64,000 nucleotides of DNA from a virus (Duplodnaviria > Heunggongvirae > Uroviricota > Caudoviricetes): positions 89,598 through 153,597 of the IMG/VR virus record IMGVR_UViG_3300043313_001192; one strand, 5' to 3'. The notes beneath the pieces were generated by a model, which had not been told where the DNA came from, did not search any database, and saw only the letters and a list, made by a program, of their open reading frames with translations. Of this stretch, positions 37,101-48,764 are shown piece by piece. A program made the translations under genes and the position numbers. Every line of letters starts with the position of its first letter. Within the stretch, counting starts at the first letter, position 1.

Positions 37101-38555
37101 TCAGTCCAGACCTCCGGCTGCAGTACCGGGGTAGGGCGTGACCGTGTTGCCCGTGATGTTGATCTTCATGGAGGCGACGTTGTTGTCCTCGTTGGACTCC
37201 GTCACCGCGCCGACGTCATCAGCGTGGATCTGGGCGGTGTAGTCCCCGTCCGGGAGCCCGGTGATGTCCACTGCCTGGTCCGGCAGCGACGTGGGGTAGG
37301 TGTCGCCCCATCCCCTGCTGAGTCCATGGATGATGGTCAGCGCGTTCGGCAGGCCCTTCCCGCACGAGGTGGTCTCCAGGTAGACCGGCGCTGTCGGAAC
37401 ACCCGCCTGACCCTGCAGCTGGCGGTAGGAGGTGTTGTCCTGCAGGCAGTACCCGTGCTTCTCCGCGCGGGCCACCACCTCGCCGGTGCTGTCCAGCAGC
37501 TGGTAGGAGTCGAAGTCCTGTACGTGCCAGTGGTTGTGACCATCCCTGGCGTAGTAGAACTTCACCTTGGGCTCGTAGACCGACTGGGTGGACCCGTCAG
37601 GACGGTAAAACGTCTGGTACGCCTTCCAGTCGTTTGGTGAGTCCGCGGAGCGGTCAGCGATGATCTCTGAGGGTCCAGCACCCACGTTGAGCCCGATCAC
37701 CGGGAACTTGAGCAGCTTCTTGCCCTCCAGGGCAGGGAAGTCATCGTTGAGTGGAGCCGACGGGTCGATCAGGAAGCACTTCCCGTCGGTCGCGAGCATG
37801 TCACCGGTCCCGCACTTGTCCAGGCTCTTGACCCGGATGTCGGGGAGCAGAGCATCAGCCGGTGGGGTGTCCACGACGTTCATGCAGTCGGCCGCCGCAG
37901 CAGCCCGAGGTTCTCCCTGGCTCACCGTCGTCCAGGCTGAGGGCTCCGCGGGGACCCACTTCTTCGCGGTGGTGCTCCAGACCCAGCCCTGGGTCCGCTG
38001 CTGGTTCGCCGTGGTGACGATCAGCTGGTTGCACTGCGCCTGGTCGTCGACGACCTGGGTCTGGATCAGGTCAGCGGGCTTCGCGCACGTCGTGGGGCTC
38101 GGGTTGCTCGCGCACGTCGCCGACTGCGGTGGCGTCCGGCTGATCACCCGCAGCGCGATCTGCCGCGATCTGCCGCGCAGGTGGCCCTTGGCGTAGACCA
38201 GGGTGCGGAACCGGGCGATGCCGGGCTTGCTGACCCGCTGGCTGGGCATTGTGTACTTGCCGAGCGCTCGCCGGTACCTGGTGCTCCGGTTGATCCAGCG
38301 GTGCCCGTTCCAGCGCTGCAGGACGATCCGCTTCTGGACGTGGCTGTTGTTCCCGCTGAGGTAGCCCACGATCGGGATGGCCGCGTTGACGTACCGGCTG
38401 CCCACCGAGTTCAAGGAGATGGCCAACCGCACCGGCTGGGTGCGGTAGGCCGCTCCTCCACTGCCCGAGCGCGCCTCAGCAGGCGTGAGGCTCAGCCCCA
38501 TGCTTGCGACCAGCGCGACCAGCAGTCCCAGCACTGCTACTGCTCGTGTCTTCAT
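37101..38555 (-). CDS. secreted protein with lysyl-oxidase-like catalytic domain (paralogue of 35828..36916)
   Basis: Signal peptide MKTRAVAVLGLLVALVASMGLSLTPAEA. C-terminal 250 aa ~60% identical to the neighbour, including LLKFPVIGLN, ARDGHNHWHVQDFDSYQ, AEKHGYCLQDNT, SRGWGDTYPTSLPDQAVDITGLPDGDY and VTESNEDNNVAS. Confidence 0.6.
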   Translation of the reverse strand: MKTRAVAVLGLLVALVASMGLSLTPAEARSGSGGAAYRTQPVRLAISLNSVGSRYVNAAIPIVGYLSGNNSHVQKRIVLQRWNGHRWINRSTRYRRALGKYTMPSQRVSKPGIARFRTLVYAKGHLRGRSRQIALRVISRTPPQSATCASNPSPTTCAKPADLIQTQVVDDQAQCNQLIVTTANQQRTQGWVWSTTAKKWVPAEPSAWTTVSQGEPRAAAAADCMNVVDTPPADALLPDIRVKSLDKCGTGDMLATDGKCFLIDPSAPLNDDFPALEGKKLLKFPVIGLNVGAGPSEIIADRSADSPNDWKAYQTFYRPDGSTQSVYEPKVKFYYARDGHNHWHVQDFDSYQLLDSTGEVVARAEKHGYCLQDNTSYRQLQGQAGVPTAPVYLETTSCGKGLPNALTIIHGLSRGWGDTYPTSLPDQAVDITGLPDGDYTAQIHADDVGAVTESNEDNNVASMKINITGNTVTPYPGTAAGGLD

Positions 38556-38571
38556 GTCGTGTCCGTCTCTA

Positions 38572-39300
38572 CTAGTTGATGGTTCGGTTCGCTGATGCGG
38601 CGTAGATGGAGTCCACCTGCTCTGGGGTGAGTTCGCGGTCGAAGAACGCCACGTTGCGCACGGTCCCGATCAGTGACCCAGCGTTGTCGCCGAGTCCCCC
38701 GATGCGGACCGCGCTGGGTGTGTTCTTGGGCTTGATCCGGAAGCTGGACAGCGGGTCGTCATCGCGCTTCACGCCGTTCTTCCAGATGGCGATCTGGCTC
38801 CGGTCCACCTCGCCGACGATGAGCCGCTCGGTCGTGGCCTGGCGGTCCTGGAAGTAGGAGCCAGCGCCCAGCCCACCCTGGGGGTTGAAGTAGTAGAACG
38901 ACGTGCGACCTTGGCGCTCGGCCGCTTCGCCGGGCGCGTCCTGCACGTAGTGCCGAAACACCCACTCGTGCCAGTTGCCCTTGCCCTTGCCCAGCCAGTG
39001 CACGTACTGCGTCGACTCGGGATCTGAGCCGTGCCAGTCCTTGATCGTCAGGAGCGCCACCACCGTCAGCTTCCCGGTCGTGGTCACCGAGAAGTCGTCG
39101 TTGTCGGGGATCCGGATGTAGCTGTGCCCGTCGAAGACCGCACCCTGGTCGGTGAACTCGGCGCCGTGGTTGGTGCCGTCGTCGTTGCCGATGACATCGT
39201 CCGAGCCGGTCACCTGGTTGAGTGGGTAGAAGTGGGTCAGCCCAGGGATCTTGAAGATCACCCTGCCCGCCTGATCCAGCTTCTCAGTGTCTGTCTGCAC
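38572..39300 (-). CDS. LamG/concanavalin-A-like lectin/glucanase-fold protein
   Basis: 242 aa; paralogue of the N-terminal 240 aa of 42549..43712 (shared IPGLTH.Y.L, FSV.T.G.LTV...T...[29 protein letters not shown](F/W)(D/N)R.LT..(Q/E)..SIYAA). Confidence 0.5.
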   Translation of the reverse strand: MQTDTEKLDQAGRVIFKIPGLTHFYPLNQVTGSDDVIGNDDGTNHGAEFTDQGAVFDGHSYIRIPDNDDFSVTTTGKLTVVALLTIKDWHGSDPESTQYVHWLGKGKGNWHEWVFRHYVQDAPGEAAERQGRTSFYYFNPQGGLGAGSYFQDRQATTERLIVGEVDRSQIAIWKNGVKRDDDPLSSFRIKPKNTPSAVRIGGLGDNAGSLIGTVRNVAFFDRELTPEQVDSIYAASANRTIN

Positions 39301-39508
39301 TTTTCCAGGGCGCGTTGATCGCCAGAACCACCATCAGTGCCGCGATGATCCCTCCAACGAGCAGGATCAGGGGCAGGCGTGGCGAGGCTCTCACGCGCTC
39401 GATGAAGTGGTTCTGCGGCATCCGGCTCCCCCAGCGTCGTTTCGGTCTTGTGTCAGGTGTCGTTGTTCTATCAGGTAAACCTGAAGTTGGTGAATCTGGA
39501 CTATACAA
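39284..39508 (-). CDS. small membrane protein (start possibly 39421)
   Basis: ...RVRASPRLPLILLVGGIIAALMVVLAINAPWK TM helix; the N-terminus of the ORF is Pro/Thr/Arg-rich and may be run-on. Confidence 0.3.
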   Translation of the reverse strand: MYSPDSPTSGLPDRTTTPDTRPKRRWGSRMPQNHFIERVRASPRLPLILLVGGIIAALMVVLAINAPWKSADRH

Positions 39509-39512
39509 CGTT

Positions 39513-41501
39513 CTACGTCACCGACGCACCCACCTTGGCGTTGGCGAGCAGCCAGGTGCGCGCCGTGCCGTGTCCGGAGAGCACGTAGCCGCCTGCCGGG
39601 ATCGCGATGTTGCCGACACCGTCCTGGACCTTGGTGATCACACCGTTCACCACGACTGCCTCGAAGCCGTACGCGTTGGTCCCGGTCGTCGCGCCGAAGG
39701 ACGGCGTGTAGACGATCAGCGTGTTGGCAGCGCGGTAGACGTTCGTGCCCGAGACGGCCAGGCTCTTGCCGTTGATGGTGACCTTGCTCGTCGGCGTGCC
39801 GCTCGGCGGGGGAGTCGGCGTAGGCGTAGGCGTGGGAGTAGGCGTAGGTGTCGGAGTCGGCGTCGGCGTCGGGGTCGGCGTGCCGCCACCCGGAATGGTG
39901 AGCACCTGTCCGATGCTGAGGTTGTAGGGAGACACGATGTTGTTGGCACTGGCGATCTGCTGCCAAGGGACACCGACCTTGGTGCCGATCTTGGAGAGGG
40001 TGTCTCCGCTCACCACGGTGTAGGTCCCGGCACCCGGAGTGGGCGTGGGAGTGGGCGTGGGAGTAGGTGTCGGGGTCGGCGTAGGGGTGGGCGTCGGCGT
40101 AGGTGTCGGGGTGGGCGTCGGCGTGCTGCCGCCGATGACAGCACCCATGGTCTTGACCGTGACGTAGGACTGCTGGGACACCCAGTCGACGAACTGGGTG
40201 AACTCGTCGAGGCTGATCGAGGTGTCCGTGCACCCGCTACAGATGCTGTGGATGACCAGCGGCACCCAACCGCCTCGGTCGTCTCCTGCCTGGGTCACGT
40301 AGGTCTTGAGCATGTCCAGCGTCGTGTCGGAGTGCACCGACTGGTTGGTGCCGATCTCGTACGGCTTGGGCGGTGGGATCGACTCGGCAGTGGCGCACGA
40401 GGCACAGCCATACCCAGGCGACCGCAGGTTGCCCACGACGCGCGCGTTGGAGTAGCCGCACGACTGGGTGATGCTGTCCACTGCTGCACTGGTCGAGCCG
40501 AACGGGTAGGCGAAGCTCTTGGCCGAGAAGCCCATGCCGACCAGCGCCGTCCGGTCATCACAGATCTGACGACGGGCCTCGGTGGTGGTCGCAGCCGCGA
40601 GGTCGACGTGGTCCAGCGTGTGCCCACCGATCTCGTCACCGGCCGTCTGCAGGGCGGTGGCCTGGGCCTTGGTCATGTAGGCCGTGTTGCCGCCGGTGAG
40701 TCGGGGGCTGTTGACGTAGTACGTCCCGTTCATCCCGTGCTGGTGCAGGACCTGCGCGGCGGAGAGCTGGCTGGAGAACGTGTCGTCGAAGGTGAAGCTC
40801 AGCGTGACGGGATTGCTCGGGGTCGCAGTGGCAGCAGCCACGGCGGCAACACGCGCGGTCGAGGTGTCGGTCTGTCCCGTGGTGTCGGTCGTGGTCAGCT
40901 TGACCGCGTACGTGCCCGACTTCTCATAGACGTGCTGCACGGTCGAGGCTGGCTGTGGCGCAGTGCTGGTGCCGTCACCGAAGTCGTAGGTGTAGGACTT
41001 GATGCCGTGGTCGTCGGTGGAGGTTCCGCCGTCGATCGTCACCGCGTCGGGCGCGGTCTTGTCCGCCACCACCTTGGCGTCCGGGGGTGCGTCGGCCGTC
41101 GGGGGCTTGGCCGCGACCACGAGCTTGCGGGTGGCCGAGCTGGCCTTGCCGTCCTGGTCGCGCACCGTCAGGCGGACGTCGTAGGTGCCCGCCTTGGTGT
41201 AGGTGTGGCTGAAGGTTCCCTGCGGCTCCTTGCGGTCCTTGGTGCCGTCTCCCCACTGGTAGGTGAAGGAGGTGACCCCCACGTCGTCGGTGGATCCGGA
41301 TCCGTCCGCGACGACAGGTGCACCGACCGCTGCGGTGCCGGGATTGAGGACCAGGTCCGCCGTCGGTGCCTGGTTGGTCGCTGCGGTGGCTGGAGTGCCA
41401 CTCCCGGTCCCCACGACCAGGAAGGCTGGCGCGATCAGCGCCACAGCAGCGATGCCGCTACCAAGAATCTGGGCTCGCTTGCTCGTTCGCCGTTGCGTCA
41501 T
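39513..41501 (-). CDS. secreted multidomain protein: 2x PKD-like + NodB polysaccharide deacetylase + LysM + conserved C-terminal module
   Basis: Signal-like N-terminus; PKD-like FSHTYTKAGTYDVRLTVRDQDGK / YTYDFGDGT; NodB motifs NGTYYVNSPRL...GDEIGGHTLDHVDL; (TP)n linkers; LysM YTVVSGDTLSKIGTKVGVPWQQIASANNIVSPYNLSIGQVLTIP; C-terminal [18 protein letters not shown] module shared with 42549..43712. Confidence 0.65.
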   Translation of the reverse strand: MTQRRTSKRAQILGSGIAAVALIAPAFLVVGTGSGTPATAATNQAPTADLVLNPGTAAVGAPVVADGSGSTDDVGVTSFTYQWGDGTKDRKEPQGTFSHTYTKAGTYDVRLTVRDQDGKASSATRKLVVAAKPPTADAPPDAKVVADKTAPDAVTIDGGTSTDDHGIKSYTYDFGDGTSTAPQPASTVQHVYEKSGTYAVKLTTTDTTGQTDTSTARVAAVAAATATPSNPVTLSFTFDDTFSSQLSAAQVLHQHGMNGTYYVNSPRLTGGNTAYMTKAQATALQTAGDEIGGHTLDHVDLAAATTTEARRQICDDRTALVGMGFSAKSFAYPFGSTSAAVDSITQSCGYSNARVVGNLRSPGYGCASCATAESIPPPKPYEIGTNQSVHSDTTLDMLKTYVTQAGDDRGGWVPLVIHSICSGCTDTSISLDEFTQFVDWVSQQSYVTVKTMGAVIGGSTPTPTPTPTPTPTPTPTPTPTPTPTPTPTPGAGTYTVVSGDTLSKIGTKVGVPWQQIASANNIVSPYNLSIGQVLTIPGGGTPTPTPTPTPTPTPTPTPTPTPTPPPSGTPTSKVTINGKSLAVSGTNVYRAANTLIVYTPSFGATTGTNAYGFEAVVVNGVITKVQDGVGNIAIPAGGYVLSGHGTARTWLLANAKVGASVT

Positions 41502-41568: not shown

Positions 41569-42552
41569 CTAGAGCAAACCCTTCTTGATCAGCGCGTCGA
41601 CCATCGCGTTGTGCTTCGCCACGATGCTCCTCGTGGTCGCGTGGTAGTCAGCACCCGGCGTGGGCTCGGGCGTGGGCTTCGGAGTGGGTGTGGGAGTGGG
41701 CTCGGGCTTGGGCTCCGGCGTCGGTGTGGGAGTGGGCTCGATCGCGCCAGTCGGGCTGATCTCACGCACGCTGGCCTTCTTGTAGATCAGGCCGTCCGTC
41801 GCCACGTCGTCGGAACGGAAGTAGACGGTGATGTTCGGCTTCCCGGACTCCGAGCCGCTCCGGGTCCCGCTCTTGGTCAGCTTCATCTTCGGGTCGATGC
41901 CGCTCTTGCAGGCGGTCACTCCGAGCTTGGTGCCGTCGTCCTCAAGCTCGGTGATCTTCTCCCAGGTGCCACCGTCCTTGCCGTCGGTCATGTCTCGGTA
42001 GATCTCGATCTTGACGTTGCCGTTCGAGAGGTCGTAGGTCAGCATCTTGAAGCCGATCCAGATGTTCCTCGCCAGACCTCCCGACCACACGGTCTTGCGG
42101 TACTGCCACGGGGCGTCGGAGGCAGGGTGGTTGGTCTCCTTCTCGATGTCCACGTCGCCGTCGTACCTGAAGCGGCCGTTGATGCTGCGGGTGTCGCACT
42201 TGTTGGTGTTCTCCGAGCCGATGGTCCCGTGGTTGGCCCTGGTGCAGCACACCAGACCGCCCCACGGCGTCCCGGCGTCGTTGACCCGCTTGAAGTAGAC
42301 CGTCACCTCGACGTCGGTCCATTGCCGCTGCTTCGCCGGGTCATGCACGTACATCCGCGGCACCGCGCCCGAGATGAACAGCTGCCCGTCGGCCACGCGG
42401 TAGCTCGCGTCGCCGTGGTCGCAGTTGAACCAGGGGTCCTTGGGGTCGGTGCCGGTGAACGTGCGTGGCGTGACCCAGTTCGCCTCCCACTTCATGCCGC
42501 CTGGGAGGTCGGCGTAGAGCTTGGTGGTCCCAAAGGTGTCGACGGCGCTCAC
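41569..42552 (-). CDS. beta-jelly-roll-like protein, possible glycan hydrolase/lyase (tentative)
   Basis: GTG start in a GTGA overlap with the upstream stop ([22 protein letters not shown]...). Beta-rich core; PT-rich linker; C-terminal [27 protein letters not shown] shared with 42549..43712. The first ~90 codons of ORF 41569..42819 are run-on. Confidence 0.4.
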
Positions 42553-43712
42553 AGGACACCGTCCTCGGTGAGTTTGTCCACGACGAGATTGTGCTTCTCG
42601 ACGACGTTGTCGGCGGTGGCGTGATAGTCGGTGTCTGGCGTTGGTTCGACGCCGCCGGTGAGCGTGACGCTCGTGCCCACCTTGGCGTAGTTGATGAGCC
42701 AGGTACGCGCTGCTCCGTGCCCGGAGAGGACGTAGCCACCCGCTGGGATGGTCGCGTTTCCCTTGGCGTCGACCAGTGCGGTGACCTTGCCACCCACCAC
42801 CGTGGCTTCGGCACCCCACTGGTTGGTGCCGGTGGTCGCGCCGGTCTTGGAGGTGTACTCGATCAGCTGGTCGGTCTGGCGCCCGACGTCCACACCGTCG
42901 AGCGTGTGGGCGGTCGAGCCGATGCGCACGTGGTCCTCGGTGGGGGTCGGTTCTGGGGTCGGAGTCGGGGTAGGTGCCGGATCCGGTGTCGTGGTCGGGG
43001 GCGTCGTGGATGCCCCGCCGTCCGCTTCGTTGCGTGCCGCGTAGATCGACTTGATCTCGGTGTCGGTGAGCACCCGGTTCCAGAACGCCACCCGGCGTAG
43101 CTTGCCGACCAGGAATCCGGTGGCCAGGTCCTTGCTGCCCAGCCGGACCGGCTGGGTGGTGTTCTGCGGCTTGATCGAGTAGCCCGAGAGCAGATCGGAG
43201 TCACGCTTGACCCCGTCCTTGAAGATCTGGGTCTGCTTGAGGTCACAGGTCCCGACCACGACACGCTCCTGGCCCGTGGGGTCGTCGTCCTGGAAGTAGG
43301 AGCCAGCGCCCAGACCACCTGAGTAGTTGAAGTGGTAGAACGACGTCCGCTTCGGCCGCGACGGCGCCTCGCCGGTGCCCCCCGGATAGACGTAGTGCCG
43401 GAAGCACCACTCCGCCGGGGTACCGTTCGCGGCCTTGCCCATCCAGTTGACGTACTCGCTGGCGTGCGCGCCCTTCCAGCTGTCCAGGGTCATGAAGACC
43501 AGGACCGTCAGCCCACCCTTGGTGGCCACCGAGAAGTCGTCGTGGTCCGACAGCTCGATGTAGGAGTCTCCGGTGAAGACGGCCCCCTTCGAGCCGAAGG
43601 TGCAGCCGTGATTCTTGCCGTCGATGTTGCCCACCGAGTCGCTGGCGTCCTTGGTCAGGTCGTAGTAGTGGGTGAGACCTGGCATCTTCGAGATCACATC
43701 GAGAAACGTCAT
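42549..43712 (-). CDS. LamG-like domain protein with shared C-terminal module
   Basis: 387 aa; N-terminal 240 aa paralogous to 38572..39300; PT-rich linker; C-terminal ...[30 protein letters not shown]...[28 protein letters not shown]. Confidence 0.5.
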
Positions 43713-43758: not shown

Positions 43759-45090
43759 TCACTTGCTCACGATGACGGTCTCCACAGCGGGCTCGACGGC
43801 GACATCTGCGTGAACAACAGACCCACGGGTGTGCCACGAGGTGGACTTCAGCTGGGTCAGCGCGTAGTACACGGCGGGGCGCAGGATGATCAGGCCGAGC
43901 AGCGGGTAGAGCGGTGAGAGCGCCCACTGGATCCACCGGTCCTTGGCGGTGAAGCTGGGCCGGTACATGGCGTAGATCGCTGTCATGGTGAGTGCACACA
44001 CCTCCCAGAAGAGCAGCCCGCGCAGCAGCGCGAGACTGCCGTACTTGATCGTGACGGTCGTGAGCACCACGACCACGATCGGCCAGAGCAGCGCGAAGAC
44101 CAGCGGGAAGACGTAGAAGAACACCATCAGCGGGCGCAGGTTCGTGATCACGAATGGCGTGCCGAGCCAGGCAGACTTGCTCCAGCGCATCCGCTGCCAG
44201 AAGCAGCCCTTCCAGGTCTCGGGCAGCTGGGTAGCGACTATCGACTCGGTGACACCGACGACCTGCCCGCGCATCAGCGCGTAGAAGGACAGTCGTCGGT
44301 CGTCCCCGGCAGTGCCGGAGGTCAGGTAGTCGTCCAGGTTGTCGTAGATGACCCTGGCTCGGTACAGCGCGAGTGCGCCGGATGTCGGAGAGACGATGCC
44401 CAGGATCGAGCGTGCCATCCGGAAGAGCAGGCACGAGGTGACCACGTTGATGTCGGTGAGCCGGGTCAGGAAGTTCTTGTTCCAGTTGCGCACCAGGATC
44501 ATCCCGGTGGCTGCCTGGACCCGGTCGTCCTTCATCGAGCGCAGCAGGTGCTCCAGCGCGTCCTCGTCACAGACCGAGTCGGAGTCGACAGTGAGGATGT
44601 AGTCGAACTCGTACGGCGAGTGCATCTTCAGGGCGTGCGCCTGAGCCTCGCGCTTGCCCGCGTTGTCGACCCGGTGCCACTGGACCAGCGGGTCCTCGAA
44701 GGTCGTCAGAGGGACCTCGGAGCCGTCGTCGATCACGTGGATCACGTCGGGCAGGATCGTCTGGCGCAGCAGCGCGCGCACCGCCTCGTGCACCAGGTGC
44801 GCCTCCTCGTTGTAGACCGGCATGATGCACATCACCCGCCCCGCTGCTGGGGGCAGGTGCGTGAAGGAACGCCAGTGCACCGCCGAGAGCATGAAGTAGG
44901 TGATCATCACCGCGATCACGGTGAAGAACACCGTCAGGAAGAGGATGTCCTGGTGCCAGCCCCACGAGATGTGGGTCCAGATCGTGTAGGTCAGGAACAC
45001 GATCAACGGCAGGTAGGCCAACGCCGTCCGGGTCCCGCGAAAGGGCTGGCTCCGTCCAGCCCTACGCTCGGTGTTGACGGCGTTGGACAT
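43759..45090 (-). CDS. processive family-2 glycosyltransferase (polysaccharide synthase, QxxRW type)
   Basis: 443 aa; multiple TM helices; VIDDGS, DSDS, GDDRRL and QRMRW motifs (D,D,D,QxxRW as in cellulose/chitin/hyaluronan/PNAG synthases). Confidence 0.75.
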   Translation of the reverse strand: MSNAVNTERRAGRSQPFRGTRTALAYLPLIVFLTYTIWTHISWGWHQDILFLTVFFTVIAVMITYFMLSAVHWRSFTHLPPAAGRVMCIMPVYNEEAHLVHEAVRALLRQTILPDVIHVIDDGSEVPLTTFEDPLVQWHRVDNAGKREAQAHALKMHSPYEFDYILTVDSDSVCDEDALEHLLRSMKDDRVQAATGMILVRNWNKNFLTRLTDINVVTSCLLFRMARSILGIVSPTSGALALYRARVIYDNLDDYLTSGTAGDDRRLSFYALMRGQVVGVTESIVATQLPETWKGCFWQRMRWSKSAWLGTPFVITNLRPLMVFFYVFPLVFALLWPIVVVVLTTVTIKYGSLALLRGLLFWEVCALTMTAIYAMYRPSFTAKDRWIQWALSPLYPLLGLIILRPAVYYALTQLKSTSWHTRGSVVHADVAVEPAVETVIVSK

Positions 45091-46099
45091 AGCGATCCCC
45101 CCTGGTGGCGATGCGGTAGGTGAACACGAACGTCAGTGCGATGGTGATGCCCAGCAGCATGATCAGGGTCTGGTTCACCCGGATCGCCCCGATGGTGACC
45201 GCGGACTGTGCCGAGTCCGGTGTCTTGACGGATGTGTCGCCTGCCGTGGCTGCACTTCCGTAGTGCTGGACGTTGCCGTCCGAGGGCAGCAGCTTGCCGC
45301 CGACGACGTTGGCAACGGTGGCCACCGTAGTGGACGTCGGGCGCTTGGAGAGCCAGTCCACGAACGCGATGAAGGTGTCCAGCGAGATCGAGTTGTCCGA
45401 GGGCGTGTCGACCTTGGAGCAGTTGGTGTCACAGATCCGGTGGAACACCAACGGGACCCAGCCGCCGTGGTCGTCCTCGGCCTGGGTGACGTACTTCCTC
45501 AGGTCGGCCAGCGTCGTGCTGGGACGTGCTGTGGTCGGCGTCCGGATGGCCCACTGGTCCTTGGCTGGGATCGTCTCAGCAGTGGGGCAGTCCAGATCGC
45601 AGCCGTAGCTGGACGAGCGCAGGCCGGGCAGTGCGCGAGCGCTGTTGTAGCCACAGTCACGGGCGACCTTCTTCACCTCGCTGTTCGTCGAGCCGAGCGG
45701 GTAGGCGAAGTCGCTGACCCGGAATCCCATGCTGAGCAGGGTGGCCCGGTCGTCACAGATCTCGTGACGCATCTTGCTCGGTGACAGGGTGGTCAGGTCG
45801 GGGTGGTCGAGCGTGTGCCCGCCGATCTCGAAGCCCGCGGCCTGGTACTTCTTGAGCTGTGCACGGGTCAGGTAGTCGACGTCCTTGCTGATGCGCGGGC
45901 TGTTGACGTACACGGTGCCGGTCATGTCGTAGTTCTTCAGCACGTCCAGCGCGAGCTTCTGGGTGGCGAGCGTGTCGTCGAAGGTGAAGCTGACGATCGT
46001 GGGCTCCGGCTCCGAGGACGCTGCCGTTGCCGAGAGGGTGAACGGTCCGAGCGTCAACAGCACCATCATGCCGAGTAGCAGGAGAGAGAAGCGCTTCAC
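45062..46099 (-). CDS. membrane-anchored NodB-family polysaccharide deacetylase
   Basis: Signal/TM MKRFSLLLLGMMVLLTLGPF...; NodB motifs FTFDDT, TGTVYVNSPRI, GFEIGGHTLDHPDL; C-terminal TM LIMLLGITIALTFVFTY. Confidence 0.7.
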   Translation of the reverse strand: MKRFSLLLLGMMVLLTLGPFTLSATAASSEPEPTIVSFTFDDTLATQKLALDVLKNYDMTGTVYVNSPRISKDVDYLTRAQLKKYQAAGFEIGGHTLDHPDLTTLSPSKMRHEICDDRATLLSMGFRVSDFAYPLGSTNSEVKKVARDCGYNSARALPGLRSSSYGCDLDCPTAETIPAKDQWAIRTPTTARPSTTLADLRKYVTQAEDDHGGWVPLVFHRICDTNCSKVDTPSDNSISLDTFIAFVDWLSKRPTSTTVATVANVVGGKLLPSDGNVQHYGSAATAGDTSVKTPDSAQSAVTIGAIRVNQTLIMLLGITIALTFVFTYRIATRGDRYVQRRQHRA

Positions 46100-47355
46100 A
46101 GCCGCACCACGTTCCTACGGTCAGGGACCACGTTGCGGCAGTCGAGCACGCGCTGGGCCTCGACGCAGAGCTTGTCGTAGTCGATCTCGTCGTGGTGGGT
46201 GACCACGATCGTCAGCGGGAACTGGCTCAGCTCACCGGCGAGGTCGTGGGAGGAGAGACGCTTGGTCATCGCCCACTCGTCCACGTGCGGGTCCACCACG
46301 GTGACGTCAGCGCCCTGGGCGAGCAGGCCGTCGACGATCGCCAGCGCCGGGGACTCACGCAGGTCGCCCACGTTCGGCTTGTAGGCCAGCCCGACGACCA
46401 GCACCTTGGTGCCCCGGATGTCGATGTCGTCCTTGCGGAGCATGTCCATCGCCCGCTCGACCACGTACGCCGGACGTCGGCCGTTGACCTCGTGGGCCAG
46501 CTCGGCGAACTTGAACGGACGCCCGAGCAGCGCATTGGTCTGCCAGGCCAGGTACATCGGGTCGATCGGCAGGCAGTGCCCACCGACACCCGGACCAGGC
46601 GCCCACCGGGAGACCGAGTGCCCCTTGGTCATCGCCGCGTCGATCATCTCGTGCACGTCGATGTCCATGTCGTGGCAGATCTCGGCCAGCTCGTTGACCA
46701 GCGCGATGTTGACGTATGCCTGGGTGTTCTCGAAGACCTTGGCCAGCTCAGCCACCTTGGGCGAGGACACCGGCACGGTCGTGTCCACGATGTCGTCGTA
46801 GAAGCCCTTGATGATGCCCAGCGCCTTCTCGGTGGTGCCGGAGACCAGCTTCGGGGTGTTCTCCAGCGTGTGCGGGCTGGAGGGGCCAGGGTCGATCCGC
46901 TCGGGTGAGAACCCCAGGTGGAAGTCCACACCCGCGGTGAGCCCGGAGGTGCGCTCCAGCGCGTCGGCGAAGACGCCCTCCGTGGTGCCGGGGTAGGTGG
47001 TGGACTCCAGCACGATGGTGCTGCCCTCCTGCAGGATCCGACCCAGGTCCTCACCGGCCGAGATCACGTAGCTCAGGTCGGGGTTGCCGTCGCGCAGCGG
47101 CGTCGGCACGGTGACCACCGCGATGTCGAAGGTGCCGTGGCTGCTCACCATCTGGTGGCACAGTCCCAGCCGGTTGGCAGCGCGCACCTCCGTCAGTCGC
47201 TCGTCGCTGACGTCCTCGATGTAGGAGGTCCCCGCGACCAGCGAGTTGATCTTGGTGCGGTCCAGGTCGATACCCACCACGTGGTGGCCGACCTCTGCTG
47301 CCCGAACCGCCAGTGGCAGTCCGACGTATCCCAGTCCGATGATGCAGACCCTCAT
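46096..47355 (-). CDS. NDP-sugar 6-dehydrogenase (UDP-glucose/UDP-N-acetylhexosamine dehydrogenase family)
   Basis: 419 aa; N-terminal Rossmann MRVCIIGLGYVGLPLAV; catalytic GGHCLPIDP; YKPNVGDLRESPAL. The GGHC (rather than GGSC) block is more like WbpA/TviB/WecC-type UDP-N-acetylhexosamine dehydrogenases than UgdH. Confidence 0.8.
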   Translation of the reverse strand: MRVCIIGLGYVGLPLAVRAAEVGHHVVGIDLDRTKINSLVAGTSYIEDVSDERLTEVRAANRLGLCHQMVSSHGTFDIAVVTVPTPLRDGNPDLSYVISAGEDLGRILQEGSTIVLESTTYPGTTEGVFADALERTSGLTAGVDFHLGFSPERIDPGPSSPHTLENTPKLVSGTTEKALGIIKGFYDDIVDTTVPVSSPKVAELAKVFENTQAYVNIALVNELAEICHDMDIDVHEMIDAAMTKGHSVSRWAPGPGVGGHCLPIDPMYLAWQTNALLGRPFKFAELAHEVNGRRPAYVVERAMDMLRKDDIDIRGTKVLVVGLAYKPNVGDLRESPALAIVDGLLAQGADVTVVDPHVDEWAMTKRLSSHDLAGELSQFPLTIVVTHHDEIDYDKLCVEAQRVLDCRNVVPDRRNVVRL

Positions 47356-48065
47356 GATGCGCTCTCTTCCTCTTCCTCTTGCTCCTGGTCAGGGGACTTC
47401 TCACGCAGAACCACCGACAGGGGGTCCTCGTAGTCGAACAACACGGTGAGGATCGAGTCCCCGGTCACGTGCTCGTGCTTGCTCCAGATCACCGGGATGT
47501 TCTTGGCGGTGAACTCGGCGCAGTCGCCCATGTAGGCGCGAGCGCCGGTGCCCGAGAGATAGCTCAGCGGGCGCGGAAACGCCTCCATCGCGTAGATCAG
47601 ACCCTCTGAGCCGCGTAGGTCATCAGGGATCGCACGGCTGAGTGTCAGCGGCGTCTCGATGCCGAGCATGTCGCGGATCAGCAGGATCAGCCGGAAGTTG
47701 AACTCCCAGAGCCGATCGGTCGTGATCGAGGTGATCTCGTCCATGACCCGCTCGCCGCGCTGCTCGTGGTCCCAGAACTGGGCCACTCCGTCCCCGGCCT
47801 TGCTGCCGTAGCGGGAGTGCACCATCTTGGCCAGCTCGGCCGCGGCCTCGGGCTTGACCCGCTTGTCGAAGATCGACTCGGTCGAGGATCCGGGCTGCAG
47901 CGGAAGGTTGGCCCAGCGCTCGCGCATCAGCACCCGACGCTGGTAACCCCGGTTGACGAACTGGTCCCAGATCTTGAGGTCGAAGACCTCGGCGTGGGCC
48001 ATCTTGTAGAAGAACCCGCTGTAGGGCAGCAGGTCTGGCTGGTGGGCTGAGTAGAGCATCAGCAC
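47352..48065 (-). CDS. WbqC-like family protein
   Basis: N-terminal ...SAHQPDLLPYSGFFYKMAHAEVFDL fits the WbqC pattern (Q.NY.PW.GYF..I..AD.F); ATGA overlap. Confidence 0.5.
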   Translation of the reverse strand: MLMLYSAHQPDLLPYSGFFYKMAHAEVFDLKIWDQFVNRGYQRRVLMRERWANLPLQPGSSTESIFDKRVKPEAAAELAKMVHSRYGSKAGDGVAQFWDHEQRGERVMDEITSITTDRLWEFNFRLILLIRDMLGIETPLTLSRAIPDDLRGSEGLIYAMEAFPRPLSYLSGTGARAYMGDCAEFTAKNIPVIWSKHEHVTGDSILTVLFDYEDPLSVVLREKSPDQEQEEEEESAS

Positions 48066-48095
48066 CCTTCCTGGTGTCGTTGTGTCATTGCGTCG

Positions 48096-48764
48096 TTAGA
48101 CCCGCACGCTGCGAACCAGGGCGTACTGCTCTGCCCAAGCCACCTGACGTGCGACGCCGACGGCATGTGCCATCTGCTTGATGCTGTTGACCGGGTGTGG
48201 GCCGGTCACGGCCTGGGAGGAGTATGCCTCAAGTGCCTCGACCTTGCGGTCGATCTGGTCCTCGTTCAGGGCCTCGAAGACGTTCCACCTCAGGTCGCTC
48301 GGATAGAGCTGGGCGTCGTAGACGGCGACGTCGTAAACGAAAACCGACGGGGTGAAGTGGTGGCCTTCACTCATCGAGAGCCGGGCGGCACGCATGCCCG
48401 CCTCGTAGGCGGCGATGTGATCCTGATGCAGCGAGGGGAACGGCAGGTACAGCTCTTCTGGCCACCATTCGGACAGCGCCTCGTCGAGCGAGCCGACCAG
48501 ACCGTGCATGTCGTGGTCGAGACTGCCGTCGGGACGCTGCAGATAGGCGACGTGCTGGTAGCCCAGCACCTCGCGTGCCCGGTCGAACTCCTTCTCCCGG
48601 ACCTTGTCCGGTGCAGTGAGCACGATCACGCCGCACTCGTCGCGGTACTTCGCGAGAAGCCCACCACATCCCAGTGTCTCGTCGTCACAGTGCGGTGCGA
48701 CCACCGCGCGAGCAACATGTCGCATGAACCCCCCAAGGCCACTATGCGGCCCGCACCGCAGCAC
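48096..48764 (-). CDS. PIG-L/LmbE-family N-acetylglucosaminyl deacetylase
   Basis: VVAPHCDDETLGCGGLL (PIG-L signature) and LHQDHIAAYE (HxDH zinc site). Confidence 0.7.
   Translation of the reverse strand: MLRCGPHSGLGGFMRHVARAVVAPHCDDETLGCGGLLAKYRDECGVIVLTAPDKVREKEFDRAREVLGYQHVAYLQRPDGSLDHDMHGLVGSLDEALSEWWPEELYLPFPSLHQDHIAAYEAGMRAARLSMSEGHHFTPSVFVYDVAVYDAQLYPSDLRWNVFEALNEDQIDRKVEALEAYSSQAVTGPHPVNSIKQMAHAVGVARQVAWAEQYALVRSVRV

What the first reader, a model, noticed from the sequence alone, without database searches (positions are those of the whole stretch)
37101..48764. ~12 kb polysaccharide synthesis/modification island inside a phage late region
One contiguous minus-strand operon (ATGA/GTGA-coupled) encodes, in order: a PIG-L/LmbE de-N-acetylase; a WbqC-like protein; an NDP-sugar 6-dehydrogenase with a GGHC catalytic block (WbpA/TviB/WecC-like, making an N-acetyl-hexosaminuronic acid donor); a membrane-anchored NodB deacetylase; and a multi-TM processive GT2 synthase with D,D,D,QxxRW. 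These are followed by a LamG-like protein, a beta-jelly-roll protein, a PKD-NodB-LysM protein, a second LamG-like protein and the two LOX-like proteins. The synthase + sugar dehydrogenase + deacetylase combination is the logic of hyaluronan (chlorovirus hasA/ugdh) or PNAG/chitosan-type (icaA/icaB, pgaC/pgaB) exopolysaccharide systems. A complete synthase-based polymer pathway in a siphovirus-like genome suggests phage-directed remodelling of the host surface, for example receptor masking, superinfection exclusion or biofilm matrix. The proteins lacking signal peptides but carrying LysM/LamG/PKD could instead be virion-associated depolymerases.
Basis: partly seen in the sequence, partly recalled or inferred. 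Interest (0 to 1): 0.75.

Follow-up and report, generated by a model that had tools for sequence, protein, structure and literature searches.

The report
Phage-borne exopolysaccharide synthase gene cluster
A large phage of high-GC Gram-positive bacteria carries, between its tail genes and its DNA polymerase, a complete 11-gene kit for making and modifying a hyaluronan/chitin-like surface sugar polymer. The kit was copied from its hosts, and three of its polymer-binding-type proteins have been re-tooled in the phage.

Summary
Window 35828-48764 (minus strand) encodes, in order:
- a PIG-L deacetylase
- WbqC
- an NDP-sugar 6-dehydrogenase
- a membrane-anchored NodB deacetylase
- a five-TM GT2 synthase (DDGS, DSD, GDDR, QRMRW)
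- a LamG protein
- a ConA-like jelly-roll protein
- a PKD-NodB-LysM protein
- a second LamG protein
- two lysyl-oxidase homologues, with a tRNA-Asn between them

The island is phage-borne. It lies between tape measure/Dit/tail genes and PolA/helicase. A diverged relative on a 175-kb contig has it at the same junction, and its genes evolve no faster there than the tail genes.

New findings:
1. The island copies a conserved, apparently uncharacterised chromosomal cluster of Nocardioidaceae and Kineococcus (52-71% identity; NodB about 40%). Its first seven genes are in Kineococcus order.
2. The synthase is nearer HasA (29%) and NodC (27%) than PgaC (23%), but belongs to none of them.
3. The dehydrogenase is TviB-like, not HasB-like, so classical hyaluronan is unlikely.
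4. The WbqC model folds like BshC. With a BshB/MshB-like PIG-L, this suggests an N-acyl swap on the sugar.
5. Phage LamG copies have lost the signal peptides of their bacterial orthologues. Most have gained a C-terminal helix.

The product and its benefit to the phage remain inferred.

The parts
48096..48764 (-). PIG-L/LmbE-family de-N-acetylase. It is cytoplasmic and probably starts at 48725.
   Evidence: Pfam PIG-L E 1e-14. Best NCBIfam hits are BshB2, BshB1 and MshB, all far below cut-off. Zinc motifs HCDD25 and HQDH113 are present. It is 59-68% identical to orthologues in Nocardioidaceae and Kineococcus, and 71% to phage L086.
47352..48065 (-). WbqC-family protein. The predicted fold is BshC / class-I aminoacyl-tRNA-synthetase-like, which suggests a putative ATP-dependent ligase.
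46096..47355 (-). NDP-sugar 6-dehydrogenase of the UDP-N-acetylhexosamine type.
   Evidence: TIGR03026 388 bits, above its cut-off. Nearest PDB entries are UDP-ManNAcA dehydrogenase 4r16 and Cap5O. TviB 39-40% > UDP-ManNAc DH 32.5% > UDP-Glc DH/HasB 26-28%. GGHC258 present.
45062..46099 (-). NodB-type polysaccharide deacetylase with an N-terminal signal segment and a C-terminal TM anchor. Its gene overlaps the synthase gene by 29 nt.
   Evidence: Pfam Polysacc_deac_1 E 4e-22. Hydrophobic segments at 4-22 and 312-330. TFDD39, HTLDH95 and LVFH217 present. Overlap shown.
43759..45090 (-). Membrane-embedded GT2 polysaccharide synthase, related to HasA, NodC and chitin synthases.
   Evidence: Pfam GT2 families and Chitin_synth_2. 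NodC HMM 114 bits > PgaC/IcaA 71 bits, both below cut-off. Xenopus HAS1 8smm E 4e-9. pXO1 HasA 28.9% > NodC 26-28% > PgaC 23%. TM segments at 23-41, 49-67, 325-343, 354-372 and 389-412; motifs DDGS, DSD, SGALALYR, GDDR, QRMRW. Sits in an actinobacterial clade with 60/60 NJ bootstrap support.
42549..43712 (-). LamG (ConA-like) protein, followed by a ~90-aa 'GYVLSGHG' domain, a P/T linker and a C-terminal helix. It has no signal peptide.
   Evidence: Pfam Laminin_G_3. 51-55% identical over 90% of its length to the Kineococcus cluster gene in the same position, which does have a Tat/Sec signal. Only 12 codons lie between the upstream stop and the IPGLTHYYPL-type motif. The C-terminal KHN helix is found only in phage copies.
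41569..42552 (-). ConA-like beta-jelly-roll protein (327 aa) of a widespread, highly conserved family without a Pfam model. It carries a phage-specific P/T linker and C-terminal helix and has no signal peptide.
39513..41501 (-). Exported PKD-PKD-NodB deacetylase-LysM protein ending in a second 'GYVLSGHG' domain.
   Evidence: Pfam PKD_4 x2, Polysacc_deac_1 and LysM. N-terminal hydrophobic segment at 12-30 after an RR-containing n-region. TFDD237, HTLDH294 and LVIH415 present. A bacterial PKD-NodB orthologue lies next to the GT2 in a Jatrophihabitantaceae genome, 45% identity over residues 49-475.
38572..39300 (-). Second LamG protein. It has no signal peptide and no C-terminal helix.
   Evidence: Pfam Laminin_G_3 E 5e-4, 20.7 bits, below Pfam's 27.6-bit cut-off. 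47-58% identical to LamG proteins of Kineococcus and of phage/viral contigs L086, L004 and L005. 28 non-hydrophobic codons lie upstream of the motif.
37101..38555 (-). Secreted lysyl-oxidase homologue 1.
   Evidence: Pfam Lysyl_oxidase E 5e-12. The alignment to human LOXL2 5ze3 matches the HxHxH block, the Lys of EKHGYC and the Tyr of GDTY; I identify these from memory as the copper site and LTQ-cofactor residues. Signal peptide at 5-23.
36938..37011 (-). tRNA-Asn (GTT) between the two LOX genes.
   Evidence: ARAGORN. It is not a duplicate of the other tRNA-Asn at 22587-22660.
35828..36916 (-). Lysyl-oxidase homologue 2, a probable lipoprotein (LVAGAC lipobox).
   Evidence: Pfam Lysyl_oxidase E 6e-11. 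HNHWH217, EKHGYC243 and GDTY295 present. 62% identical to L086. No tblastn hit in 50,697 cultured-phage records.
48765..48910 (-). Non-coding leader upstream of the island, containing a block conserved with phage L086 (TTCCCCACGTGACAG at 48853-48867). It may be a promoter or operator.
   Evidence: Alignment with the L086 leader. The motif does not recur elsewhere in the window. The sigma-70 consensus scan found nothing.
48911..59638 (-). Upstream phage tail module: tape measure (1979 aa, with a C-terminal peptidase-like region), Dit, a 614-aa minor tail protein, and small proteins.
   Evidence: PHROG tape-measure, Dit and minor-tail hits. Pfam SPP1_Dit. Syntenic with L086 at 40-86% identity.
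33968..35779 (-). Downstream phage DNA polymerase I, the start of the replication module.
   Evidence: Pfam DNA_pol_A E 1e-50. 43-47% identical to Actinomycetia phage DSL-LC01 and to Microbacterium and Arthrobacter phages of 129-194 kb.

Best explanation
The island is a phage-resident, host-derived and functionally maintained copy of a conserved actinobacterial synthase-dependent exopolysaccharide cluster.

Proposed working (inferred from the families):
1. In the cytoplasm, the dehydrogenase oxidises a UDP-N-acetylhexosamine, most likely UDP-GlcNAc, to the uronic acid.
2. The PIG-L deacetylase and the BshC-like WbqC ligase act as a pair, like BshB/BshC or MshB/MshC. They remove an N-acetyl group from a sugar precursor and replace it with another acyl or aminoacyl group by an ATP-dependent step.
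3. The five-TM GT2, a HasA/NodC/chitin-synthase relative, polymerises the donors and extrudes the chain through the membrane.
4. Outside the membrane, the anchored NodB and the exported PKD-NodB-LysM enzyme partly de-N-acetylate the polymer and/or the wall.
5. The two exported copper lysyl-oxidase homologues oxidise primary amines in the product or the envelope.

During infection this coats or rebuilds the surface of the infected cell, as chlorovirus HAS/CHS do on Chlorella.

The three ConA-like proteins are exported in bacteria. In the phage they have lost their signal peptides, and two of them have gained a linker and C-terminal helix. They therefore probably reach the polymer on the virion or at lysis.

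Shown: gene content, phage residence, host origin, conservation, intact catalytic motifs, and loss of signal peptides. Inferred: substrates, polymer structure, timing of expression, and the benefit to the phage.
For: Domains and motifs.

Phage residence: tail genes and PolA/helicase/exonuclease/Sak4 flank the island on the same strand. There is no GC discontinuity.

Second phage: L086, a 175-kb metagenome contig, has TMP-Dit-Tal-g243-g159-PIG-L-WbqC-DH-GT2-NodB-LamG-LOX x3-PolA. Island proteins are 53-81% identical to the window's, tail proteins 40-57%. dN/dS is 0.22-0.57 for island genes and 0.60-0.70 for Dit and Tal.

Accessory nature: the cultured relative DSL-LC01 has nucleotide-metabolism genes at this junction instead.

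Host origin: the same gene order occurs in chromosomes of Kineococcus (7 genes), Nocardioides, Marmoricola, Aeromicrobium and several MAGs, flanked by housekeeping genes at different loci. Identity is 52-71% (NodB about 40%).

GT2 placement. Dehydrogenase placement.

WbqC fold. PIG-L nearest BshB/MshB.

Export signals on NodB, PKD-NodB-LysM, LOX1 and LOX2.

Signal-peptide loss and the phage-only C-terminal helix.

Viral precedent: chlorovirus HAS plus UDP-GlcDH make surface fibres early in infection (PMC5408694).
Against: - No product, expression or phenotype data exist.
- Every named-family HMM is far below its curated cut-off (NodC 114/550, PgaC 71/422, TviB 214/592, BshB 35/195), so substrate assignments are analogies.
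- The WbqC-BshC relation is fold-only. Sequence profiles find nothing, and to my knowledge BshC's own chemistry has not been reconstituted in vitro.
- WbqC homologues in two cultured phages sit among DNA-metabolism genes, not polysaccharide genes.
- Only 64 kb of a probably ~175-kb genome is visible, so lifestyle and expression class are unknown.
- A lytic phage gains little from classical superinfection exclusion. Even for chloroviruses the benefit of the fibres is unresolved.
- The phage GT2 sequences are not resolved as monophyletic (21/60 bootstraps). Repeated exchange with hosts cannot be told apart from a single capture.
Confidence: 0.6

Rival explanations
1. Receptor/virion reading. The polymer made by the host's own cluster is the phage's receptor or matrix. 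The signal-less ConA-like proteins (LamG1, LamG2, jelly-roll) are virion-associated binding or cleaving modules, docked through the C-terminal helix where present. The island's enzymes serve to edit that receptor on infected cells: deacetylation or oxidation would destroy or mask it so that progeny are not trapped. This is compatible with, and may complement, the best explanation.
For: - Phage copies lack the export signals that the bacterial orthologues have.
- A P/T linker plus KHN helix occurs in the window (twice) and in the phage-type contigs L086 and L004. L005's LamG has a different C-terminal helical tail. The motif is absent from about 60 bacterial loci.
- The genes follow the tail module directly.
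- Invariant D135/E137/E139 in the jelly-roll family suggest catalysis.
Against: - The ConA-like fold is generic: lectins and GH16 enzymes score equally.
- There is no tblastn similarity to any tail protein of 50,697 cultured phage records.
- The genes are separated from the tail genes by the five cytoplasmic and membrane enzymes, and LamG1 is coupled to the cluster in the bacterial order.
- No virion proteome is available.
Confidence: 0.25
2. Lysogenic conversion. The phage is temperate, and the island is a moron expressed from the prophage. It would give the lysogen a capsule or biofilm matrix, receptor masking or stress protection.
For: - The cluster is patchily distributed and sits at different chromosomal loci in different genera, as expected for mobile DNA.
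- It has its own conserved upstream leader.
- DH+GT2 pairs on IMG/VR contigs are nearly identical to stretches of Streptomyces genomes (L006~L049, L009~L066). This suggests that other lineages carrying the pair are prophages.
Against: - No integrase, repressor or partition gene appeared among the roughly 50 window ORFs scanned.
- The nearest cultured relatives by PolA are 129-194 kb phages of Actinomycetia, Microbacterium and Arthrobacter. Their lifestyle was not checked here.
- The bacterial copies have no phage genes within 10 kb.
- The island lies inside the structural-to-replication gene string on the same strand.
Confidence: 0.12
3. The product is not a long extracellular polymer. It would be a short, modified chito-oligosaccharide or a lipid- or wall-linked glycan, following Nod-factor logic: NodC-like synthase, then deacetylase, then re-N-acylation.
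For: - NodC is the best-scoring curated family model for the GT2.
- A deacetylase and a putative re-acylating ligase are present.
- It has been proposed that bacterial CHS-like enzymes might secrete oligomers rather than chitin fibres (PMC5122149).
Against: - The NodC HMM score is 114 against a cut-off of 550.
- HasA is the closer annotated relative.
- NodB here is extracytoplasmic and membrane-anchored, unlike (from memory) rhizobial NodB, which is cytoplasmic.
- There is no NodA.
- The cluster carries lectin-like, LysM and other exported modules typical of matrix systems.
Confidence: 0.1
4. The cytoplasmic enzymes (DH, PIG-L, WbqC) serve modification of phage DNA or virion proteins rather than a surface polymer.
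For: - WbqC homologues in Arthrobacter phage DanielleIgnace and Ralstonia phage RP13 lie among helicase, nuclease, ParB-like, methyltransferase and glycosyltransferase genes.
- The window also has a soluble GT4 near the helicase gene.
Against: - Here the three genes are translationally coupled to NodB and the membrane synthase.
- They keep that linkage in bacterial chromosomes that have no phage genes nearby.
Confidence: 0.04
5. Assembly artefact or decaying passenger: host DNA mis-joined into a phage contig, or a recent non-functional acquisition.
For: The source is probably a metagenome assembly. Only short contigs (up to 9.6 kb) carry an identical gene product.
Against: - The island has the same position and order in the independent contig L086.
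- All ORFs are intact and catalytic motifs are retained.
- dN/dS is below that of the tail genes.
- Composition is uniform across the window.
- There are phage-specific remodellings, namely signal-peptide loss and the C-terminal helix.
Confidence: 0.02

Closest known systems
Chlorovirus polysaccharide genes (PBCV-1 has A98R + UDP-GlcDH A609L + GFAT; CVK2 chs + ugdh2)
   Same: A virus encodes a HAS/chitin-synthase-class GT2 together with an NDP-sugar 6-dehydrogenase. The infected cell becomes covered with the polymer. Genes are swapped between viruses at one locus (PMC5408694).
   Different: - The host here is a bacterium and the virus is a tailed phage.
- The genes form one contiguous, partly translationally coupled block copied from the host.
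- The dehydrogenase is of the HexNAc type.
- The block adds PIG-L, WbqC, two NodB deacetylases, two LOX homologues and three ConA-like proteins.
- No product has been shown.
Bacterial class I hyaluronan synthase operon hasABC (Streptococcus; Bacillus pXO1)
   Same: HasA is the nearest annotated relative of the GT2: 28.9% identity over 81% of the query. It shares SG.L..YR, GDDR and Q..RW.KS-type motifs, and the synthase is linked to a dehydrogenase.
   Different: - The dehydrogenase is only 26% identical to pXO1 HasB and 39-40% to TviB.
- There is no hasC/galU.
- The GT2 lies in a separate actinobacterial clade with 60/60 bootstrap support.
Rhizobial NodC/NodB(/NodA)
   Same: NodC is the best-scoring curated HMM for the GT2. 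The synthase is adjacent to a NodB-fold deacetylase. The deacetylate-then-re-acylate logic is possible.
   Different: - The score is 114 against a cut-off of 550, with 26-28% identity.
- NodB here is exported and membrane-anchored.
- There is no NodA; the candidate re-acylating enzyme is a BshC-like fold.
PNAG systems icaADBC / pgaABCD
   Same: A membrane GT2 synthase combined with an extracytoplasmic CE4 deacetylase acting on the nascent HexNAc polymer.
   Different: - PgaC is the most distant of the three references: 23% identity over 57-59% of the query, 19% in the trimmed alignment, HMM 71/422.
- The GDDR and SG.L..YR motifs found here were not found in the E. coli PgaC reference.
- No PgaD/IcaD or PgaA was identified.
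Bacillithiol BshB/BshC and mycothiol MshB/MshC
   Same: A PIG-L de-N-acetylase paired with a BshC / class-I-aaRS-fold enzyme that would acylate the freed amine.
   Different: - The PIG-L scores are far below the BshB/MshB cut-offs.
- The gene context is polysaccharide synthesis, not thiol synthesis.
Streptomyces cslA-glxA (from my own knowledge, not tested here)
   Same: An actinobacterial GT2 synthase genetically linked to a secreted copper oxidase that acts on or with the glycan.
   Different: GlxA is a galactose-oxidase-like radical copper enzyme, not a LOX/LTQ enzyme. CslA is cellulose-synthase-like. No phage copies are known to me.
Prokaryotic lysyl oxidases (Grau-Bove et al. 2015, PMC4448552)
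   Same: The LOX catalytic domain is present in Actinobacteria with simple architectures and signal peptides. Its function in bacteria is unknown.
   Different: Here LOX is linked to a polysaccharide cluster, fused in bacteria to the ~90-aa 'GYVLSGHG' domain, and present in two or three copies in phage genomes. It is absent from 50,697 cultured-phage records.

Membership tests
Processive membrane-embedded GT2 synthases (HAS / NodC / chitin-synthase group) | GT-A domain with D, DxD, G(E/D)DR and QxxRW motifs, flanked by N- and C-terminal TM helices | tested here: met
   DDGS121, DSD169, GDDR262 and QRMRW299 are invariant in 32 homologues. TM segments lie at 23-41, 49-67, 325-343, 354-372 and 389-412. 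The sequence groups with HasA and NodC, separated from PgaC by a long branch.
Class I hyaluronan synthase (HasA) | Sequence membership in the HasA/HAS clade | tested here: not met
   Only 28.9-31% identical to pXO1 HasA. Xenopus HAS1 matches at E 4e-9. The sequence falls in a separate actinobacterial clade with 60/60 bootstrap support.
Class I hyaluronan synthase (HasA) | Partner UDP-glucose 6-dehydrogenase supplying UDP-GlcA | tested here: not met
   The dehydrogenase is nearest to UDP-HexNAc dehydrogenases (4r16, Cap5O, TviB 39-40%). It is only 26-28% identical to UDP-Glc DH/HasB.
Class I hyaluronan synthase (HasA) | Product is alternating GlcA-GlcNAc | not testable with these tools
   Needs polymer chemistry.
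NodC chitooligosaccharide synthase (TIGR04242) | Score at or above the curated cut-off of 550 bits | tested here: not met
   114.5 bits; 26-28% identity.
PgaC/IcaA PNAG synthase (TIGR03937) | Score at or above the curated cut-off of 422 bits | tested here: not met
   71.2 bits; 23% identity over 57-59% of the query.
UDP-glucose/GDP-mannose dehydrogenase superfamily (TIGR03026) | Three-domain architecture, catalytic Cys, and score above cut-off | tested here: met
   388 bits against a cut-off of 189.8. All three Pfam domains are present, as is GGHC258.
TviB/WbpA-type UDP-GlcNAc 6-dehydrogenase | Equivalog-level score; activity on UDP-GlcNAc | tested here: inconclusive
   214 bits against a cut-off of 592. 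TviB is nevertheless the nearest named family in plasmid annotations, at 39-40% identity. Activity was not tested.
CE4 / NodB polysaccharide deacetylases | Metal triad Asp-His-His (TFDD, H[ST]xxH) and the catalytic His motif | tested here: met
   Both NodB proteins have TFDD, HTLDH and L(V/I)xH. Pfam scores are above cut-off.
PIG-L/LmbE deacetylases | Pfam score above cut-off and HxDD / HxxH zinc motifs | tested here: met
   55.4 bits against 28.2. HCDD25 and HQDH113 are present. Not a member of BshB1, BshB2 or MshB, with scores of 20-35 against cut-offs of 182-224.
BshC (bacillithiol synthase) | Sequence homology and a full-length ~540-aa architecture | tested here: not met
   [not shown]
Lysyl oxidase (LOX, PF01186) | Catalytic domain with the copper His triad and the LTQ-forming Lys and Tyr | tested here: met
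   Pfam 46.4 and 42.7 bits against a cut-off of 20.4. HNHWH, EKHGYC and GDTY align with the corresponding LOXL2 residues in 5ze3. Assignment of these residues as copper and LTQ sites is from memory. Enzyme activity was not tested.
Phage-encoded auxiliary gene island (moron/AMG) | Located within a phage genome, absent from related phages at the same site, and with host homologues | tested here: met
   Flanked by tail genes and PolA. DSL-LC01 has other genes at the junction. Host orthologues share 52-71% identity and the same gene order.

The most novel reading that the evidence does not exclude
The cluster builds a covalently cross-linked extracellular matrix by animal-like chemistry.

The BshC/LysRS-fold WbqC would attach an amino acid with a free primary amine, for example lysine, to the de-N-acetylated sugar. 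The secreted lysyl oxidases would then oxidise those side-chain amines, or wall amines, to aldehydes. The aldehydes would condense with the free glucosamine amines exposed by NodB, giving a Schiff-base cross-linked glycan shell.

The phage would deploy this shell on infected cells. It would also carry signal-less, helix-tagged ConA-like proteins on its virions that recognise or cut the same material.

This would be the first functional context for bacterial lysyl oxidases and the first phage-encoded matrix-cross-linking system.
Probability: 0.1. Interest if true: 0.9.

Novelty: new variant of a known kind. Interest (0 to 1): 0.72.

Why it matters
Virus-directed synthesis of a surface polysaccharide is a textbook oddity of chloroviruses. 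Here the same idea appears in tailed phages of Actinomycetes in a far more complete form: precursor enzymes, synthase, extracellular modifiers and lectin-like proteins. At least two diverged large phages keep it under purifying selection, and other viral contigs carry reduced forms (the full core, or only the DH+GT2 pair).

It also exposes a conserved bacterial cluster for which my literature searches found no description. That cluster links three poorly understood families to one pathway: WbqC (now with a BshC-like fold), bacterial lysyl oxidases, and a jelly-roll family about 60% identical across several phyla. This makes their functions testable.

The consistent loss of signal peptides and gain of a C-terminal helix in the phage copies is a clear example of a phage re-engineering host secreted proteins. 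It may point to a new class of virion-displayed glycan-binding modules. In practice, the polymer could govern phage adsorption, aggregation and survival in soil and freshwater actinobacteria.

Tried and rejected
- Megablast of the island against cultured phages: no match.
- Single-protein scan of IMG/VR with the GT2: nothing. The alignment-based scan was needed.
- Exact look-ups of the closest GT2 homologues P0001 (89%) and P0015: not on record.
- Sequence searches of PDB with WbqC, alone or as a profile, and with the jelly-roll profile: no meaningful hits; the influenza HA matches are noise.
- The PDB profile search with the GT2 alignment gave only generic GT-A hits (K4CP, chitin synthase, BcsA) and did not discriminate between families.
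- The sigma-70 promoter and terminator scan of the island gave counts at or below shuffle expectation.
- The conserved leader motif does not recur in the window, so it gives no clue to expression class.
- Pfam at E<=10 for the ~90-aa 'GYVLSGHG' domain and for the LOX1 N-terminal region: nothing.
- tblastn of LOX2, LamG1 and the jelly-roll protein against cultured phages: nothing.
- Rfam at gathering thresholds on the whole window: nothing.
- Literature searches (WbqC; hyaluronan synthase + phage; HAS + Kineococcus/Nocardioides/Streptomyces; phage-encoded EPS synthase) found no description of this cluster in bacteria or phages.
- Considered and rejected: host DNA beside a prophage, because both flanks are phage and L086 is syntenic.
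- Considered and rejected: a PNAG system, because PgaC is the most distant reference.
- Considered and rejected: true hyaluronan, because of the dehydrogenase type.
- Considered and rejected: L072 (a MAG contig with GT2 segments up to 88% identical) as the same phage. It has the bacterial gene order, no phage backbone genes within 10 kb, and many frameshifts.

Full report
**Observation**

The window has 65% G+C, and almost all of its genes are on the minus strand.
- PIG-L (48096-48764)
- WbqC (47352-48065)
- a three-domain NDP-sugar dehydrogenase (46096-47355)
- Polysacc_deac_1 (45062-46099)
- GT2 with Glyco_trans_2_3 and Chitin_synth_2 matches (43759-45090)
- Laminin_G_3 (42549-43712)
- an ORF with no real Pfam match (41569-42819)
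- PKD x2 + Polysacc_deac_1 + LysM (39513-41501)
- Laminin_G_3 (38572-39300; this match, at 20.7 bits, is below Pfam's 27.6-bit cut-off and is supported instead by homology to LamG proteins of related loci)
- Lysyl_oxidase (37101-38555 and 35828-36916)

The quoted motifs are there: GGHC in the dehydrogenase, and DDGS, DSD, GDDR and QRMRW in the GT2, all invariant among 32 homologues. The GT2 has two N-terminal and three C-terminal hydrophobic helices. Overlapping stop/start junctions (ATGA, GTGA, -29 nt) link WbqC-DH-NodB-GT2 and LamG1-jelly-roll.

- The island runs to 35828, because the second LOX gene lies outside the given coordinates.
- It contains a tRNA-Asn at 36938-37011.
- It has three non-coding gaps of about 185-212 nt, so it need not be a single transcript.
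- The 416-aa ORF really starts at about 42552, giving 327 aa.

**Is it phage-borne?**

Yes. Upstream lie a 1979-aa tape measure, Dit and a minor tail protein. Downstream lie DNA polymerase I, a helicase, an exonuclease, a Sak4-like protein and a nucleotidyltransferase. PolA is 43-47% identical to those of Actinomycetia phage DSL-LC01 and of Microbacterium and Arthrobacter phages of 129-194 kb. Composition is uniform across the island.

The decisive evidence is a 175,446-bp metagenome contig, L086. It has the order TMP-Dit-Tal-g243-g159-PIG-L-WbqC-DH-GT2-NodB-LamG-LOX x3-PolA. Island proteins are 53-81% identical to the window's, while tail proteins are 40-57% identical. Between the two phages, dN/dS is 0.22-0.57 for island genes and 0.60-0.70 for Dit and Tal. 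dS is probably compressed by the GC3 bias, so only the comparison between gene sets is meaningful. The cultured relative DSL-LC01 has the same backbone order, but carries thymidylate kinase, thymidylate synthase and dCMP deaminase at this junction. The island is therefore an accessory module at a variable site that a phage lineage has retained.

**Where it came from**

The GT2 has hundreds of close homologues, up to 89% identical. Contexts were retrieved by exact look-up and by a scan of 185,579 species genomes. They show the same gene string in these chromosomes:
- Kineococcus (four species)
- Nocardioides rubriscoriae
- Marmoricola sp. RAF53
- Aeromicrobium sp. Root472D3
- several MAGs

Identity to the best of these bacterial orthologues:

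| Protein | Identity to the phage protein |
|---|---|
| GT2 | 67-71% |
| PIG-L | 59-68% |
| DH | 56-66% |
| WbqC | 52-64% |
| jelly-roll | 45-53% |
| LOX | 38-53% |
| NodB | about 40% |

In Kineococcus sp. TRM81007 the cluster is exactly PIG-L, WbqC, DH, NodB, GT2, LamG (381 aa) and jelly-roll (289 aa). This is the order of the first seven phage genes, and ordinary chromosomal genes flank it. In a MAG it lies between miaA and dapF-hflX. In Marmoricola it lies elsewhere. The cluster is therefore itself mobile among actinomycetes. LOX genes follow the GT2 in the Nocardioidaceae-type clusters. There they are usually fused to a ~90-aa domain ('...GYVLSGHG...') that has no Pfam match. In the phage this domain ends LamG1 and the PKD-NodB-LysM protein.

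A trimmed NJ tree places the window's GT2 with L004 (59/60 bootstraps). Both sit inside a clade of full-cassette actinobacterial and viral sequences (60/60). Phage monophyly is unresolved (21/60).

Other viral contigs carry related modules. L005 (IMG/VR, 206 kb) has PIG-L, WbqC, DH, GT2, LamG and jelly-roll at 40-51% identity. L006-L009 carry only DH+GT2 (41-45%). Two of these, L007 and L008, have a PolA and helicase about 40% identical a few kb downstream, as in the window. Synthase-plus-dehydrogenase modules are therefore recurrent in actinophage-like contigs. No cultured phage in the 50,697-record set has a close GT2 homologue; the best is Streptomyces phage Kromp gp79 at 32%.

**What the enzymes are**

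*GT2.* The evidence from several sources agrees:
- Curated HMMs rank NodC (114 bits) above PgaC/IcaA (71 bits), both far below cut-off.
- The only significant solved relative is Xenopus HAS1, at E 4e-9.
- In annotated plasmids the ranking is pXO1 HasA (28.9% over 81% of the query, 131 bits) > NodC (26-28%) > PgaC/HmsR (23% over 57-59%).
- The window GT2 has SGALALYR, GDDR and QRMRWSKS. HasA and NodC carry closely similar motifs (SGPLSCYRR / CGPCAMYRR, GDDR / GEDR, QQLRW). The first two were not found in the PgaC reference.

With PgaC as outgroup, the actinobacterial DH-linked GT2s form their own clade (60/60), separate from HasA and NodC. The GT2 thus works like a HAS/NodC/chitin-synthase-type enzyme but is a member of none of these families.

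*Dehydrogenase.* It is a bona fide NDP-sugar dehydrogenase (TIGR03026, 388 bits). It is nearest to UDP-ManNAcA dehydrogenase 4r16 and Cap5O in PDB. In annotations it is 39-40% identical to TviB, against 26-28% to UDP-glucose dehydrogenases including pXO1 HasB. No 2-epimerase was found in the cluster, so UDP-GlcNAc going to UDP-GlcNAcA is the simplest reading. This is an inference.

*NodB enzymes and LOX.* Both NodB enzymes keep the CE4 metal and catalytic motifs and are extracytoplasmic. Both LOX homologues keep an HxHxH block, a Lys and a Tyr that align with the corresponding residues of human LOXL2. From memory, these are the copper histidines and the residues that form the LTQ cofactor. One LOX has a signal peptide and the other a lipobox. 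Grau-Bove et al. leave the function of bacterial LOX open (PMC4448552).

**A phage-specific twist**

The bacterial LamG and jelly-roll orthologues start with Sec/Tat signal peptides. Examples are Kineococcus 'SRRGFLTFLGLGAAATASLTCTPSANA|A...' and Marmoricola and MAG LamG 'M..L..A.A..A.A'. The phage copies do not:
- In LamG1 only 12 codons separate the upstream in-frame stop from the conserved (I/M)PGLTHYY motif.
- In LamG2 there are 28 non-hydrophobic codons.
- The LamG genes of L086, L004 and L005 likewise start directly at the mature domain.

Instead, LamG1, the window's jelly-roll protein and the LamG of L086 and L004 end in a P/T-rich linker plus a helix with the motif V-x-K-H-N-x-x-V-x-x-L-x-x-x-G-x-L. 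This motif is absent from all of the roughly 60 bacterial loci. L005 has a different C-terminal helical tail. LamG2 lacks the helix. It does not hold for the PKD-NodB-LysM protein, which is exported. None of the three has a detectable relative in cultured phages.

**Most likely mechanism**

See the best explanation: cytoplasmic donor synthesis and N-acyl editing, membrane polymerisation and export, extracellular de-N-acetylation and amine oxidation, and phage-adapted binding or cleaving modules. The closest functional precedent is the chlorovirus has/chs + ugdh system. It covers infected algae with fibres within minutes, and its benefit is still debated (PMC5408694).

The steps shown here are gene content, residence, origin, constraint, motif integrity, export signals and their loss. 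The substrates, the polymer, expression timing and the selective advantage are inferred.

Rivals considered: a receptor/virion-centred reading (which may be complementary), lysogenic conversion, an oligosaccharide product, and DNA or virion modification. The last is suggested by WbqC homologues lying among DNA-metabolism genes in phages DanielleIgnace and RP13. An assembly artefact is effectively excluded.

**Novelty and score**

Virus-encoded polysaccharide synthases and host-derived auxiliary islands are known kinds. The following appear to be new, as far as the searched literature and databases show:
- an 11-gene synthase-dependent cluster inside a tailed phage
- its retention across diverged phages
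- the inclusion of lysyl oxidases
- the BshC-like assignment for WbqC
- the systematic re-tooling of secreted host proteins

I rate it a new variant of a known kind, with interest 0.72.

Noticed in passing
window 20436-22103 (-) and 22104-24169: A 555-aa protein with a TROVE domain (Ro60-like; PHROG 'RNA-binding protein') lies next to about 2 kb without a convincing ORF. That stretch has lower G+C (0.62) and contains a tRNA-Asn (22587-22660). It may be a phage Ro60/Y-RNA-like module. Rfam at gathering thresholds found nothing.
   Followed up: partly
window 36938-37011 (-) and 22587-22660 (-): There are two different tRNA-Asn(GTT) genes. One is embedded between the two LOX genes of the island. 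They are not duplicates of each other.
   Followed up: partly
window 41569-41650 and 42549-42630 (-); L086 about 16056; L004 about 7400: A C-terminal helix motif (Y-H/I/Q-A-T/N ... V-x-K-H-N-x-x-V-x-x-L-x-x-x-G-x-L) follows a P/T linker. It is found only on phage copies of the ConA-like proteins and never in about 60 bacterial loci. It may be a docking or oligomerisation tag.
   Followed up: partly
window about 42640-42960 (LamG1 residues 252-350) and about 39516-39780 (PKD-NodB-LysM residues 574-662): A ~90-aa domain ('...TGTN.YG.EA.V..G.V......[17 protein letters not shown]...AKVG..V') has no Pfam match. In bacteria it is fused to the N-terminus of the cluster's LOX proteins and to LamG or NodB proteins. 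It is probably a cluster-specific carbohydrate-binding module.
   Followed up: partly
window 48853-48867 (-), in the leader upstream of PIG-L: The block TTCCCCACGTGACAG, which contains a CACGTG palindrome, is conserved with the leader of the related phage L086. It does not recur elsewhere in the window. It may be an island-specific promoter or operator.
   Followed up: partly
window 18545-19504 (-): A soluble GT4-family glycosyltransferase lies in the replication region near the helicase gene. DSL-LC01 has a glycosyltransferase plus UDP-galactopyranose mutase at a comparable position. This may relate to DNA or virion glycosylation and is separate from the island.
   Followed up: no
Cultured phages: L091 (Arthrobacter phage DanielleIgnace gp95), L092 (Ralstonia phage RP13 ORF108), Vibrio phage V-YDF132: WbqC homologues occur in cultured phages among helicase, nuclease, ParB-like, methyltransferase and glycosyltransferase genes. 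In the Vibrio phage the match lies at or beside a gene annotated as a BshB1-type deacetylase. The PIG-L/WbqC pair may be a general sugar-editing module used by phages for other purposes.
   Followed up: partly
L040-L064 (Streptomyces and other genomes); L006-L009 (IMG/VR contigs): A minimal DH+GT2 pair, 41-49% identical to the window's, is widespread in Streptomyces, Streptosporangiales and Pseudonocardiales genomes. Some viral contigs have nearly identical GT2 sequences to genome stretches in the tree (L006~L049 S. cylindrosporus, L009~L066 S. doudnae), which suggests prophages carrying the pair.
   Followed up: partly
L028 (Aeromicrobium sp. Root472D3) 6182-13362 and 17118-20666: This genome has two copies of the PIG-L/WbqC/DH/NodB set within 15 kb, the second more diverged.
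   Followed up: no
L027 (CALRVO020000019.1): A contig labelled 'MAG: Sphingomonas paucimobilis' carries the full actinobacterial-type cluster at 57-67% identity for the core enzymes. It is probably a mis-binned actinobacterial contig.
   Followed up: no
window 53699-59638 (-): The 1979-aa tape measure protein has a C-terminal region (about residues 1590-1885) that matches phage metallo-endopeptidase and endolysin families. The L086 orthologue has Pfam Peptidase_M23.
   Followed up: no
window 31506-32444 (-), 61186-62226 (-), 3027-4190 (-): Three other ORFs of unknown role: an SPFH/Band-7 protein; a protein with an SRPBCC (Polyketide_cyc) domain among the structural genes; and an FN3-domain protein.
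   Followed up: no
L072 (CAWERI010000002.1, 209,734 bp) and L070: MAG contigs carry the cluster with many apparent frameshifts. GT2 segments are up to 88% identical to the window, but the genes are broken into pieces. These are probably long-read indel errors rather than pseudogenes.
   Followed up: no
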